DNA of 11,439 bases from Candidatus Babeliales bacterium (GTDB lineage: Bacteria; Babelota; Babeliae; Babelales; Vermiphilaceae), in assembly GCA_044451405.1 (NCBI GenBank), contig JBIOKB010000027.1, positions 1 through 11,439 of the forward strand. The letters are read 5' to 3'. Positions 3,001 through 6,000 of the stretch are shown piece after piece. Made by a program: the position numbers. Within the stretch, counting starts at the first letter, position 1. Each line of letters opens with the position of its first letter.

Positions 3001-6000
3001 ATTTACTCCGTGATTACACCGCCACCTTTTTATCATTTGCCGGTTTTATGAGCCCGTTGTTTGCAGGGCTGTATGGCTGGCTATTTTTTCATGAAACAAT
3101 TACCTGGCACTTTTATGCATCAAGTATTATTGTATTTATCGGGTTATTTCTCTTCTATCAAGATGAAATACAAGAGCAGGAAACGCTTATTTAATTACAA
3201 AATTACACATCCGCAGCATCCTTTTTTATTCGCCTGCGCATGTGCAGCAATGTCAGCTGCTAATTCTTTATCCAACTGATCATCTAGAATGGGCTCAACA
3301 CGTTTATTTTCCACTCGAGAGTCAATGTATATTCCTAGTTGGACAATAACATTTCTTATGAGTTGATTTCCCACCTCTTCACGTTGATGTGTATCCAAAC
3401 CTGGCAGACACGCTACTACCCTGGCCATAGATTTTCGTAAATTAGGCTCTTGCGCAAGAATCTTTTGATGAACACTGTCTTCAAGACTCTTTTGACGAGC
3501 ACTATTTTTAGGAGAATTCTGACGACTTGATAGTGGAGATCCTAATATAGCATATGATCGTTCTGTCCCTTCTTCTGTATCGGTATCACGCTCATCAGCA
3601 GAACTCCGTCTACTGCCAGAACTTTTACTCCCATTACTTTTTGAACGAGGAAACAATAGTGAACTGGTACCAGAATCAGAGTGTGGTAACATATCACGAG
3701 ATTGTATATGCACAGGCTGCAAACTAACTGCTCCTACTTCTGCAACAAGCGAGGAAAGTGATCGTTCCGACCCTGGACCCTTCTTATCAGCCGCATAACC
3801 AACCAAAGAACTGCATACTAACAGTACGTATCCCAACCGCATACCTTCATTCATATTCTCCCCCCTTTACAATATTACACAACACCTACGTTGACTCTGT
3901 TTTTGACGCAACTTTAGAATCTCTGCAGCTAATGTTTGCTCTGGAATCATAGGATTTATCACCTGTAACACTTTCAACAGATGTACTGCAGTAATATTAT
4001 CTCTGAATGCTATTTTATCAGCTGGTAATCTTGCAAAAATTTTTGTCAGCGCAGGTTCAAGTATTTTTATATCAGAAGCAAGTTCTTTCTCGTTTATAGA
4101 ACATTGGGACTGTTGAACTGTACCACGAGTATCATCTGCTAACGCTATTAAATATTCTCTCTGTTTATTCTTAAATAGCCCACTACCAGAATCAACCCCA
4201 TGATCACGTCGCTGCTCATCGGTAAGTGGTTCAGCAAAACTCGATTCAGCAGTAGGAGTACTAAAGGTATCTTCTAAATCTCCTTCAGTTGGTTTCATTT
4301 TGGCAACTTTCTCAAGCAACGCAGTCTGCAAATCATCATGGGACACAGATGAAGCTAATCCCTGTTCACTACTACGTGAAATAGATCGGTTCGGCAATCG
4401 CGCTGATCCTCCTTTTGGCTTTTCTTCAGCGGCAGATAGCATTGATACTATAAAAATGTGCATCATTACAGCGTATACCACCCTAGACATATACCCTCCA
4501 TTTCATTATAGAATTACACAACATGGTGAACAACTCGAACAACAACCAGCACAGCATCCTACTTTAAACGATTTTTCTATCTCATCAGCAAAGTGTTGAT
4601 CTTGTTGAACAGAAAGTATTGTTGGCATTGGCAACGTACTACTTTTGGTTCGGTGATGAGCATGATACAAAGAAGCAAGTGCTTGGCGTGTCTTTTCTTT
4701 CGCAGTTCTATTTAACTTTACCGAATCTTTTATCGTATCACGTAACGCAGATCGTAATCTTTCTTCTGTTTTTGGTACTTCGAATTTAAGTTTTCTATAA
4801 TAAGCGAGCGTGTTAGGCGACAGATCTCCTTGCAACCATTCATCGCGTGCAACATCACCGCCTGAAGCAATCGACCCTCCTCTACTACCAGCACCAAGCG
4901 CTGCAAAATCTACATGCTGCTCATCAGTAATTTCTTCACCATCAATAGTTTGCAAATTGCCACTTGCAAGTAATCTGTCGCCTGGTTTAGCTTTTTGTTC
5001 TTCTTTAACAATTTTACGAAAATGCTTGCGCGTCTCGGGAGTATTTTTACCTGCAATATTGCACCTATTTTCAACAAGCAGTTTTATTACAGGATCATCT
5101 TCTTGTGATCCTGCAGAACTTCGTCTACTTTTTGGGCTAGTGAGAACAGCAGCTACACTGTGTCTCGGACTCGGTCTTGGACTACGCATAGTACTCAAAG
5201 CAGCACTTGCGTTTATTGGGTTCTTAAGTGTCGCACCAGCACCACTTCTTTGACTCGGACTTGGTCTTGCATACGTAGTAACAGGCAGCGCATCTCCTGT
5301 CGCACTATCCTTAAAAGTAAAAGATCTAGTAATACGAGCACCATAGGGCACTTCTCCAGTGCCTGGCTCAACGGTAACACGCAAGTCTCTCCTACTGCTA
5401 GCTTCAACTTCTTTATCAGATTCTTCTTCTAATATAGGTTGTGCTGGAGGCATTCTTTGCATACGCATAGCTCCCTCAAATGGCGGGCCTTCCGATGAAA
5501 CTGAACGAGCCAACAATGGTTCTTGTGCATCAGGATTTTCTGCAAATGTTACTTCTTTATGTGGACTCGTTTTTTTGGATTTTTCTGATGCGCATATAAA
5601 ACCGGATGCAAGAAAAAGAACGAGTATAGTGTAATAGTTGATGGTTTTCATATATCCCCACTCATATAATAATGAGCACCCATGTGGTGCATATCTCAAC
5701 TATACAAACAACGAAGCTCATTTTTCCATTGTTTAGAAAAATGAGCTCACCAAACATTGGTAAAATACGATTAAAATTAAGTTATTTAAGATTAATTAAG
5801 CAGGCTTCTTTATTAACTTCATCAACAAATGATGTTTCAACATCCTGGGATTCTTCTGGAAAAACCATAGAAAAACACTGCAAACAGGAGCCTTCTCCTT
5901 GTTGGTGCCTCCACAGCATAAAAAATGTAAGAAAAACCAATCCTACCAGTACCCAAACTACTTTCTTCATCCATTTCCCCCTTTTAATCATAGCATACCA

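What a model noticed while it worked through the whole genome (the two positions that open the first line are those of the whole stretch)
3195..5468. Proteins ending in eukaryotic CaaX prenylation boxes
Three adjacent genes (175, 207 and 320 aa) end in CVIL, preceded by Cys-rich or basic stretches like those of Ras/Rho tails. Three more leader-bearing proteins end in CVIL (C34:5408-6325), CIIQ (C24:5716-6663) and CIIM (C6:12084-12686). They are candidates for proteins that the host lipidates and anchors to its membranes.
Evidence so far: - 7 of 962 complete proteins end in C-a-a-X against 0.96 expected (Poisson 6e-5). - CVIL occurs 4 times at C-termini and 0 times among 273,695 internal positions. 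- The CVIL proteins show no significant similarity to each other. - No Pfam family at 1e-3 except a weak Ank_2 hit in one. - None of the 8 listed papers of the CaaX/prenylation search mentions Dependentiae.
(Added by a program. Inside this text positions count along the whole contig: contig position 1 is position 1 of the stretch shown here. "Call 12" and the like, gene names such as g00115 and contig names such as C1 are that model's own, and its searches are not shown. The text may have been shortened before it was handed on; [...] marks where a part breaks off. The agent that wrote the report below was given it as the finding of a first reader that could run no searches.)

Follow-up and report, generated by a model that had tools for sequence, protein, structure and literature searches.

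The report
Secreted bacterial proteins with prenylation tails
Three neighbouring genes of a small, probably protist-infecting bacterium encode fast-evolving exported proteins whose last four residues (Cys-Val-Ile-Leu) look like the tag that eukaryotic cells use to attach a lipid anchor, so the host cell probably lipidates them and pins them to its own membranes.

Summary
Three tightly packed minus-strand genes end in a Cys-rich stretch plus CVIL: A 4506-5651, B 3867-4490, C 3195-3854. With starts backed by ribosome-binding sites, all three carry an N-terminal hydrophobic leader.

- **Conservation:** metagenome homologues exist for all three. 6 of 6 full-length homologues keep the leader, the flanking cysteines and all four CVIL residues, at 34-59% body identity.
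- **Fast evolution:** in one syntenic contig the neighbouring HIT and NUDIX genes are 91% and 79% identical, while A is about 35%.
- **Own genome:** CxIL ends 4 of 1000 proteins against 0.076 expected.
- **Distant relative G124:** CxIL ends 27 of 963 proteins against 0.10 expected. None lies 1-5 residues off the end, and 23 of 27 have a leader. Five of 36 scanned CaaX-type proteins carry ankyrin repeats.
- **Fit to enzyme rules:** variable a1, Ile at a2 and Leu at X match published CaaX/GGTase-I rules.
- **Machinery:** no prenyltransferase, type III or type IV secretion marker was found. Secretins and a T2SS-F gene are present.

Best reading (about 0.7): Sec-exported effectors geranylgeranylated, and probably palmitoylated, by the host. 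Export and lipidation are untested.

The parts
4506..5651 (-). Gene A, 381 aa (frame open upstream to TTG 5699 = 397 aa). Layout: leader MKTINYYTILVLFLASGFICA; long Ser/Pro/Arg-rich region modelled without structure; helical C-terminal half; tail GCCAGCCSSCSPCCVIL.
   Evidence: ORF. ATG 5651 lies behind GTGGGGA. 4 of 4 full-length family members keep the leader, the Cys-rich tail and CVIL. The AF2 model has mean pLDDT 43.6; residues 25-183 and the last 16 are non-helical. No Pfam family.
4509..4559 (-). Tail of A: 17 codons GCCAGCCSSCSPCCVIL. It holds 7 of the protein's 9 cysteines. CVIL = 4509-4520; stop = 4506-4508.
   Evidence: The tail is virtually identical in P0003, where the last 8 residues match 8/8 at 34% body identity.
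3867..4490 (-). Gene B, 207 aa. Leader MSRVVYAVMMHIFIVSMLSAA; tail QSQRRCCVIL (CVIL = 3870-3881).
   Evidence: ORF. RBS GGAGGG at 4494-4499, 15 nt after the stop of A. Homologue P0005 (43% identity by BLASTP; 40% over the body) keeps the leader and CCCVIL.
3195..3854 (-). Gene C, 219 aa. Leader MNEGMRLGYVLLVCSSLVGYAA; tail NKKGCCGCVIL (CVIL = 3198-3209).
   Evidence: ORF. RBS GGGGGGAG at 3858-3865, 12 nt after the stop of B. Homologues P0007 (60%) and P0008 (55%) keep the leader and CCxCVIL. The AF2 model has pLDDT 43.4 and the last 11 residues are non-helical.
5699..5748 (-). Possible operon boundary upstream of A: a terminator-like hairpin (5714-5748) followed by a promoter-like site (5699-5728).
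   Evidence: Consensus scan only, and site counts were not above shuffled controls. Tentative.

Best explanation
A, B and C are three unrelated, fast-evolving secreted effector proteins, probably transcribed as one operon.

Proposed route:
1. Each protein is made with an N-terminal Sec-type leader and exported across the inner membrane.
2. It leaves the cell by a secretin-based (type II-like) pathway or in vesicles.
3. It reaches the cytosol of the eukaryotic host.
4. There the C-terminal CVIL box is read by host protein geranylgeranyltransferase I (possibly also farnesyltransferase), which attaches an isoprenoid to the cysteine.
5. Host RCE1 and ICMT would then trim -VIL and methylate the new end.
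6. The cysteines just upstream would be S-palmitoylated, giving a stable anchor on a host membrane, possibly the one around the bacterium.

Shown here: the anatomy, the strict conservation and end-position of the motif, its recurrence on many unrelated leader-bearing proteins in relatives, and that no prenyltransferase and no type III/IV marker was found.

Inferred: leader cleavage, the export route, entry into the host cytosol, every lipidation step, and what the proteins do once anchored.
For: 1. **Anatomy.** Leader, disordered region and Cys-rich tail + CVIL are present in all three genes. Intergenic gaps are 12 and 15 nt, each with an RBS.
2. **Selection on the tail.**
 - The last 4 residues are identical (4/4) in 6 of 6 full-length homologue pairs, at body identities of 34, 34, 52, 40, 59 and 54%.
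 - A fourth A-family member, P0009, ends GCCSSCVIL.
 - In a syntenic metagenome contig HIT is 91% and NUDIX 79% identical to the window, while A is 35%.
3. **Codons.** Codons for CVIL differ among the four genes of this genome.
4. **Position rule.**
 - In G124 (another family; 23 of 30 contigs, 910,687 bases, 963 ORF-proteins) Cys is 4th-last in 68 proteins, against 12.4 expected and 8-30 at the seven other positions.
 - CxIL ends 27 proteins against 0.10 expected, with 0 at offsets 1-5.
 - 23 of those 27 are leader-only by my hydropathy rule, against 452 of 963 overall (Fisher 3.6e-5).
 - The 54 box-ending proteins compared (43 of G124, 11 of this genome) fall into 39 BLAST families.
5. **Same-family genome G002.** C-x-I-L 3 against 0.078 expected. 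C-x-[VIL]-[LFMSQA] 7 against 1.14 expected. One tail reads KKTKKGCCIL.
6. **Residue pattern.** It fits the published motif: a1 permissive, a2 strongly aliphatic, Leu at X preferred by GGTase-I. CVIL and CAIL are named substrates, and CIIM is a K-Ras box (PMC1175975, passages read).
7. **Second signal.** A Cys lies within 10 residues upstream in 5 of 7 box proteins here, against 99 of 993 others (P 2e-4). In G124 it is 13 of 36 against 129 of 927 (P 1e-3).
8. **Eukaryote-type partner domain.**
 - 5 of 36 G124 CaaX-type proteins scanned (of 43) have ankyrin repeats above the Pfam cut-off.
 - G125 L065 and G194 L038 have leader + ankyrin repeats + CVIL.
9. **No own machinery.**
 - PPTA, Prenyltrans, Rce1-like and ICMT were not found in this genome, which is 95.7% complete.
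 - Prenyltrans was not found in 4 further trait-bearing genomes.
10. **Export route.**
 - No VirB4 and no FHIPEP; two secretins; a T2SS-F gene lies in the window.
 - In the cultured Dependentiae member C. destructans, 44% of CDS and 78% of ankyrin proteins carry signal peptides, Sec is the proposed route, and it replicates in the host cytoplasm (PMC6561590, passages).
 - A Legionella type II substrate reaches the macrophage cytosol (PMC5478897, title and start of abstract only).
11. **Precedent.** Host-prenylated CaaX effectors of Legionella (PMC13081727, passages).
Against: - No experiment shows export, host entry or lipidation.
- A Sec leader sends a protein to the periplasm or outside, not by itself into host cytosol. 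All established CaaX effectors I read about use type III or IV injection.
- Leaders were called by a hydropathy rule, not a trained predictor, and are common in the background (296 of 1000 here, 452 of 963 in G124). In this genome alone the link between box and leader is not significant (Fisher 0.08-0.26).
- Ile at a2 is almost invariant across these genomes. That is narrower than the aliphatic range the host enzymes accept, and could point to a different reader of the motif.
- One G124 tail (CEIL) has an acidic a1, which PMC1175975 calls incompatible.
- An Rce1-like/CPBP protease gene is present in 3 of the 5 trait-bearing genomes tested (G002, G125, G194; not G000 or G124), so bacterial processing is not excluded.
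- The trait is patchy. Most pattern hits in other genomes were noise: 2 of 30 loci real, 4 of 31 hits, 1 of 30 in G178.
- Gene sets are my own crude ORF calls.
No tool named the organism.
Confidence: 0.7

Rival explanations
1. CxIL at the free C-terminus is a so far undescribed bacterial sorting or lipidation signal. After Sec export, an enzyme of the bacterium reads it in the periplasm or outer membrane, for surface anchoring or for hand-over to the secretin pathway. The host plays no part.
For: - The motif goes with a Sec-type leader (G124: 23 of 27), as do all known prokaryotic C-terminal sorting tags (PMC11980579, passages).
- Several of those tags have an invariant Cys and use a CPBP ('CaaX protease') enzyme and the type II system.
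- A CPBP gene is present in G002, G125 and G194.
- The near-invariant Ile at a2 is narrower than the host enzymes require.
Against: - Known tags are tripartite: motif, then a transmembrane helix, then a basic cluster. Here the protein ends three residues after the Cys.
- No CPBP gene was found in this genome or in G124, the genome with the largest set (95.7% and 88% complete).
- The motif matches the eukaryotic CaaX rules in position, in a1/a2/X pattern and in upstream Cys or basic residues.
- It sits on ankyrin-repeat proteins.
- No candidate bacterial enzyme was identified.
Confidence: 0.13
2. The Cys-rich tails are metal-binding or disulfide/redox modules of periplasmic or secreted proteins. 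The CVIL ending is a by-product with no role as a lipidation box.
For: Cysteines are strongly concentrated in the tails: 7 of 9 in A, 2 of 3 in B, 3 of 5 in C. One protein of this genome ends GCCDDCCGCCCIPL, with Pro at a2.
Against: - Many tails in G124 and G125 have a single Cys, and still it sits exactly 4th from the end, followed by x-I-L.
- V, I and L are conserved as strictly as the Cys in 6 of 6 homologues.
- 0 of 27 CxIL motifs lie at offsets 1-5 from the end.
Confidence: 0.05
3. Chance, or a leftover of tandem duplication: the three genes are old paralogues that merely still share an end.
For: The genes are adjacent. The broad CaaX count in this genome is only modestly enriched (7 against 2.4, P 0.011).
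Against: - No detectable similarity among A, B and C outside the leader and tail.
- Different codons are used for CVIL.
- From composition, 0.0066 CVIL ends are expected against 4 seen (8e-11).
- The tail is conserved in homologues while bodies diverge.
- The trait recurs independently in G124, G125, G002, G194, G043, G046 and G093.
Confidence: 0.02

Closest known systems
Host-prenylated CaaX effectors of Legionella pneumophila (AnkB and the Pel / CaaX-motif proteins)
   Same: They are bacterial proteins of an intracellular parasite of protists that end in a eukaryotic CaaX box. Some combine it with ankyrin repeats. [quoted passage not shown]
   Different: - Those effectors are injected by the Dot/Icm type IV system and have no Sec leader. 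Here there is a leader, and no VirB4 or FHIPEP gene was found.
- Legionella has 7-11 such proteins per strain. G124 has 27 CxIL proteins in about 0.9 Mb.
- The boxes here are almost all C-x-I-L (GGTase-I type).
- There is no sequence similarity to any Pfam family.
- Nothing here is experimentally shown.
Salmonella effectors lipidated by the host (GtgE; SifA as I recall it)
   Same: A C-terminal CaaX motif on an injected effector promotes host-membrane association (PMC13423502, listing and start of abstract only). The combination of prenylation with S-acylation of neighbouring Cys in SifA is recalled from memory and comes from no call.
   Different: Delivery is by type III secretion, and these are single proteins rather than a proteome-wide class.
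Eukaryotic CaaX proteins with a second signal (Ras, Rho, G-gamma)
   Same: - Cys at the 4th-last position, an aliphatic a2, and Leu at X for GGTase-I.
- Palmitoylatable Cys or basic residues just upstream.
- A hydrophilic flexible linker.
- CVIL, CAIL, CIIM and CVIF are named boxes (PMC1175975, passages).
   Different: Those are cytosolic proteins with no signal peptide, made by the cell that lipidates them.
Prokaryotic C-terminal sorting tags with an invariant Cys (MYXO-CTERM / myxosortase)
   Same: An N-terminal Sec signal plus a short C-terminal Cys motif. Predicted lipidation of that Cys, a CPBP-family protease, and surface delivery by the type II system (PMC11980579, passages).
   Different: That tag is tripartite, with a transmembrane helix and an Arg-rich end after the Cys. 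Here nothing follows but three residues. No CPBP gene was found in this genome.

Membership tests
CaaX-box prenylation substrates (incl. bacterial CaaX-mimic effectors) | Cysteine exactly four residues from the C-terminus | tested here: met
   A, B and C all end in CVIL + stop. This is kept in 6 of 6 full-length homologues. In G124 there are 27 CxIL at the end and 0 at offsets 1-5.
CaaX-box prenylation substrates (incl. bacterial CaaX-mimic effectors) | a2 aliphatic, a1 permissive, X selects the enzyme (Leu = GGTase-I) | tested here: met
   V-I-L here. Across G124 a1 is V/T/A/I/S/E, a2 is Ile and X is mostly Leu. The rule comes from PMC1175975. One exception is CEIL, with an acidic a1.
CaaX-box prenylation substrates (incl. 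bacterial CaaX-mimic effectors) | Flexible, small or hydrophilic linker of about 11 residues before the Cys | tested here: inconclusive
   The tails are rich in G/S/C/K/R/Q and are non-helical in the AF2 models. Those models are of low confidence (pLDDT 43.6 and 43.4).
CaaX-box prenylation substrates (incl. bacterial CaaX-mimic effectors) | Second membrane signal (nearby palmitoylatable Cys or polybasic stretch) | tested here: met
   An upstream Cys within 10 residues is present in 5 of 7 box proteins, against 99 of 993 others (P 2e-4). A, B and C all have one.
CaaX-box prenylation substrates (incl. bacterial CaaX-mimic effectors) | Covalent isoprenoid on the Cys, added by FTase or GGTase-I | not testable with these tools
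   Needs labelling, mass spectrometry or an in vitro enzyme assay.
CaaX-box prenylation substrates (incl. bacterial CaaX-mimic effectors) | Access to eukaryotic cytosol (translocation into the host) | not testable with these tools
   Only circumstantial: leader, secretins and T2SS-F, and phylum biology from PMC6561590.
Legionella/Salmonella-type injected CaaX effectors | Delivery by a type IV or type III secretion system | tested here: not met
   No VirB4 (PF03135) and no FHIPEP (PF00771) match in the 95.7%-complete genome. The proteins carry Sec-type leaders instead.
Tripartite prokaryotic C-terminal sorting signals (MYXO-CTERM, LPXTG, PEP-CTERM, GlyGly-CTERM) | [quoted passage not shown] | tested here: not met
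   The proteins end three residues after the Cys. Architecture taken from PMC11980579.
Tripartite prokaryotic C-terminal sorting signals (MYXO-CTERM, LPXTG, PEP-CTERM, GlyGly-CTERM) | Cognate sorting enzyme (CPBP/Rce1-like for the Cys tags) encoded in the genome | tested here: inconclusive
   PF02517 was not found in G000 or G124 but is present in G002, G125 and G194. The genomes are incomplete (88-97%).
Bacterial lipoproteins | Lipobox L-[ASTVI]-[GAS]-C at the end of the leader | tested here: not met
   No such box is present. The leader Cys of A is not conserved in its homologues, and that of C lies inside the hydrophobic core with V/I before it (alignments). Lipobox consensus recalled from memory.
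Ankyrin-repeat effectors | Pfam ankyrin repeats above the gathering score | tested here: not met
   None in A, B, C or their homologues. They are present in other CVIL proteins of G124, G125 and G194.

The most novel reading that the evidence does not exclude
The free C-terminal C-x-I-L is not read by the host at all. It is a new prokaryotic sorting or lipidation signal of this phylum: a four-residue tag with no transmembrane helix, read after Sec export by an unknown bacterial enzyme. It would mark up to about 3% of the proteome for surface display or secretin-dependent release.
Probability: 0.13. Interest if true: 0.9.

Novelty: new variant of a known kind. Interest (0 to 1): 0.72.

Why it matters
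How it manipulates its hosts is unknown beyond long lists of ankyrin and orphan proteins with signal peptides.

- **A testable marker.** A leader plus a C-x-I-L end would single out, from sequence alone, proteins that act on host membranes: 4-7 here and 27 or more in one relative.
- **A wider principle.** It would extend host-prenylation mimicry from type III/IV-injecting Proteobacteria to a distant phylum.
- **An open question sharpened.** The phylum appears to lack those injection systems, so how do Sec-exported proteins reach the host cytosol?
- **A first handle on orphans.** These genes evolve fast, and the tail gives them a first functional clue.

I found no paper in the searched library linking Dependentiae with CaaX or prenylation. 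A search on the three isolate names showed none in its 15 listed papers and cannot exclude one among the 7,524 matches.

Tried and rejected
- **Protein A in 40 relatives, each a different genus:** no match. The homologues came from metagenome protein collections instead.
- **Naming the organism:** a search with the T2SS-F protein in named genomes gave only 25%-identical Deltaproteobacteria MAGs, so the phylum label stays unverified. All 261 genomes of the phylum fall in one order. As far as I recall, Dependentiae holds a single order, so this fits the label.
- **Metagenome contig scans:** the A-family alignment found nothing. P0003 gave one 2.6-kb contig holding only the first 72 residues of the A homologue, so B and C synteny could not be checked there. 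That P0002, P0005 and P0007 share one contig is inferred only from the same longest-contig length, 10,967.
- **Sequencing runs:** none was listed and no RNA holder was listed.
- **Protein atlas for C and A:** no usable hit; the atlas's own models have pLDDT 0.48 and 0.39.
- **AF2 with 4- and 3-row alignments:** pLDDT 43.6 and 43.4. This is too low for a fold search, so none was run.
- **DNA-pattern counts as a phylum-wide screen:** unreliable.
  - G178 showed 35 hits against 9 in the control, yet only 1 of 30 hits lay in an ORF of 80 aa or more.
  - G023, G240, G252 and G178 CVIL hits were all noise (0 of 3, 1, 1 and 3).
  - I therefore make no claim about how many of the 261 genomes have the trait.
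- **C22:380-394 'GCCKRCKCMCVIL':** a shadow frame of a plus-strand ORF, so chance.
- **GPW_gp25 hit of protein C:** E 0.0066, 16.7 bits against a cut-off of 27.2. Rejected as chance.
- **Lipoprotein reading of the leaders:** rejected (see membership test).
- **Contamination by host DNA:** rejected. The genes have bacterial RBSs and sit between EamA, NUDIX, HIT, tRNA and T2SS-F genes.
- **Complex prediction:** not used, as no suitable partner sequence is allowed.
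Full report
**What is in the window**

On the minus strand, between a plus-strand EamA transporter gene (2295-3194) and an intergenic region (5700-6095), lie three ORFs. They are separated by 15 and 12 nt.
- Each is preceded by a purine-rich ribosome-binding site 4-5 nt before an ATG: GTGGGGA before ATG 5651, GGAGGG before ATG 4490, and GGGGGGAG before ATG 3854.
- With these starts the products are A (381 aa), B (207 aa) and C (219 aa).
- All three begin with a short polar stretch, a hydrophobic core and a small-residue site, as a Sec signal peptide would: ...FICA/SEK, ...LSAA/EEK, ...GYAA/DKK.
- All three end in a Cys-rich or basic stretch plus CVIL and TAA.
- The proteins show no significant similarity to each other and match no Pfam family.
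- AF2 models built on the few homologues are of low confidence (pLDDT about 43). They agree on a leader helix, a long unstructured Ser/Pro/Arg-rich region, a small helical C-terminal part and a non-helical tail.

**Is it more than chance?**

I called ORFs across the 1.02-Mb genome greedily, giving 1000 proteins of 80 aa or more.

| Ending | Observed | Expected | P |
|---|---|---|---|
| C-[AVILMF]2-X | 7 | 2.4 | 0.011 |
| C-[VIL]2-X | 6 | 0.83 | 2e-4 |
| C-x-I-L | 4 | 0.076 | 1.3e-6 |

- CVIL ends 4 proteins and occurs at none of 287,647 internal positions.
- The four CVIL ends use different codons, so no DNA repeat is involved.
- A fifth apparent CVIL end (C22:380-394) is the shadow frame of a gene on the other strand.
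I add C20:15700-16194, which has a leader and the tail GCCDDCCGCCCIPL.

No relative among 40 genomes of other genera has protein A. The large metagenome protein collections do hold homologues:
- A: P0002 (53% identity), P0003 (35%) and, by profile search, P0009.
- B: P0005 (43%).
- C: P0007 (60%) and P0008 (55%).

All six full-length homologues keep the leader, the cysteines next to the box and all four CVIL residues, while body identity is 34-59%. The 17-residue tail of A is almost unchanged in P0003, at 34% body identity.

One metagenome contig shows HIT, then NUDIX, then the start of the A homologue, in the same order as the window. HIT is 91% identical and NUDIX 79%, against 35% for A. A is therefore a fast-evolving gene whose two ends are held fixed.

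**The same architecture elsewhere in the phylum**

A DNA pattern for CVI[L/F]+TAA over the 261 genomes of the phylum is mostly noise, but it singled out G124, which belongs to another family.
- All 7 of its hits are ORFs of 107-286 aa with a leader.
- I fetched 23 of its 30 contigs (910,687 bases) and took a census.
- Of 963 proteins, Cys is 4th-last in 68. The expectation is 12.4, and the other seven terminal positions hold 8-30.
- The commonest ends are CVIL (12), CTIL (5), CAIL (4), CIIL (4) and CIIN (4).
- C-x-I-L ends 27 proteins against 0.10 expected, and none lies 1-5 residues from the end.
- 23 of those 27 have a leader and no other hydrophobic segment, against a background of 452 of 963 (Fisher 3.6e-5).
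- The 54 box-ending proteins compared (43 of G124, 11 of this genome) fall into 39 BLAST families. Some form tandem rows.
- Five of 36 scanned (of 43) have ankyrin repeats above the Pfam cut-off.

Other genomes:
- **G125:** at least 10 such ORFs, 9 with a leader, among the 30 of 41 hits I could inspect. One combines leader, ankyrin repeats and CCVIL.
- **G194:** one leader-ankyrin-CVIL protein.
- **G002 (same family, fully censused):** C-x-I-L 3 against 0.078 expected. It also has CIIM, CAIQ and a KKTKKGCCIL tail.
- **Noise only in what I inspected:** G178, G023, G240 and G252.

The trait is recurrent but patchy, and I cannot give its true distribution.

**How it most likely works**

The motif behaves like a eukaryotic CaaX box in every respect I could check.
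- The cysteine sits exactly four residues from the end.
- a1 is free and a2 is aliphatic.
- Leu at X is the GGTase-I choice, with a few M/Q/S ends of FTase type.
- CVIL, CAIL and CIIM are named substrates in PMC1175975 (passages read).
- A hydrophilic linker precedes the box.
- Extra cysteines lie just upstream far more often than in other proteins (5 of 7 against 99 of 993 here). Such cysteines are the usual palmitoylation partner of a prenyl group.

On the machinery side:
- The genome has no match to PPTA, Prenyltrans, Rce1-like or ICMT.
- Four other trait-bearing genomes lack Prenyltrans.
- No type IV (VirB4) or type III (FHIPEP) marker was found. There are two secretins, and a T2SS-F gene lies in the window.
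- For the one cultured relative I read about, 44% of CDS and 78% of ankyrin proteins have signal peptides, Sec is the proposed export route, vesicles are seen, and the cell replicates in the host cytoplasm (PMC6561590, passages).

I therefore propose Sec export, release through the secretin pathway or vesicles, host geranylgeranylation and palmitoylation, and anchoring on a host membrane. Every step after translation is inferred.

**What speaks against it, and the rivals**

- A leader does not deliver a protein into host cytosol.
- Known CaaX effectors are injected by type III or IV systems.
- The leader calls are heuristic, and leaders are common in the background.
- Within this genome alone the box-leader link is not significant.
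- Ile at a2 is nearly invariant, which is narrower than the host enzymes need.
- One tail is CEIL, with an acidic a1.
- A CPBP protease gene is present in 3 of 5 trait-bearing genomes.

These points keep alive a bacterial reader of the tag, which I put at about 0.13. Known bacterial Cys tags, however, are tripartite with a transmembrane helix (PMC11980579), and no candidate enzyme emerged. A metal or redox module (0.05) and chance or paralogy (0.02) fit the data poorly.

**Comparison and novelty**

The closest known system is the set of Legionella Pel/AnkB CaaX effectors (PMC13081727).
- What is shared: the host-lipidation logic and the ankyrin pairing.
- What differs: the phylum, the Sec leader in place of type IV delivery, the near-uniform CxIL box, and the scale in some genomes.

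I file it as a new variant of a known kind. It works like a CaaX-mimic effector. Membership in the injected-effector class fails on the delivery feature. I found no paper in the searched library joining Dependentiae with CaaX or prenylation.

**Limits**

- Gene sets are crude ORF calls.
- No trained signal-peptide or prenylation predictor was available.
- The organism's name was not confirmed by any tool.
- Supplements of the cited papers were not opened.

Noticed in passing
window 5094-5138 (protein A) and 3591-3620 (protein C): A and C share a short motif, S-R-R-S-S-A followed by acidic residues, inside their disordered regions. SGSRRSSA is invariant in the three C-family members. R-R-x-S is, as I recall, a basophilic eukaryotic kinase consensus, so this may be a second host-directed linear motif. 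This is speculative.
   Followed up: partly
window 8385-9584 (+); G000:C12:503-991 and 5251-5727: A T2SS protein F gene lies in the window (PF00482, E 1.5e-44). Two secretin-domain matches lie in adjacent open frames of 866 and 918 aa on contig C12. No VirB4 or FHIPEP was found. This is a candidate exit route for the leader-bearing proteins. No link is shown.
   Followed up: partly
window 6096-6713 (+): A leader-bearing 205-aa protein has sub-threshold Peptidase_M50 matches (23.4 bits against a cut-off of 27.2). It sits between NUDIX and gene A. The syntenic metagenome contig L147 has no such gene there.
   Followed up: no
window 5782-6015 (-) and 5714-5748: A small 77-aa ORF with one hydrophobic segment lies just upstream of A. 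It is followed by a 15-bp-stem hairpin with a T-rich tail. It may end a separate transcript.
   Followed up: no
G000:C25:281-3332 and C68:116-562: Three tandem leader-bearing paralogues (280-384 aa) and a fourth protein all end in PEDGNL (E-E-DGNL in one). DGNL is as frequent a C-terminal tetrapeptide as CVIL in this genome (4 each). It may be just paralogy, or another conserved end.
   Followed up: no
G124:C1:54586-57001 and G124:C11:6917-8449: There are tandem rows of seven and four small leader-bearing genes. Each ends in CVIL, CTIL or CIIL, and five and four of them respectively are BLAST-related. This is local expansion of CaaX-tailed families.
   Followed up: partly
G124:C5:35567-39075 and C6:45523-45870: Four leader-bearing proteins end in CIIN, mostly after G-S-G or A-G. 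Two adjacent ones end in CVIQ and CFIQ. Asn at X is not a classical prenyltransferase choice as far as I recall.
   Followed up: no
G002:C1:6629-6931; G125:C10:16713-16994; G194:C31:9481-9765: Rce1-like/CPBP protease domains are present in three trait-bearing relatives, in G002 inside an open frame of 1114 aa. They were not found in G000 or G124.
   Followed up: no
G002:C1:464962-465789: An adjacent pair of small leader-bearing genes ends in CTLF and KKTKKGCCIL. The second is a polybasic plus double-Cys plus IL tail, very like small-GTPase ends.
   Followed up: no
window 7659-7735, 7808-7899, 9634-9719, 11076-11163: Four tRNA genes (Arg-ACG, Ser-GCT, Leu-CAA, Ser-TGA). Several listed short ORFs over them are shadow frames.
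   Followed up: yes
window 1560-2129 (-) and 9791-10213 (-): Two further orphan proteins have an N-terminal hydrophobic leader, no Pfam family and no CaaX end.
   Followed up: no
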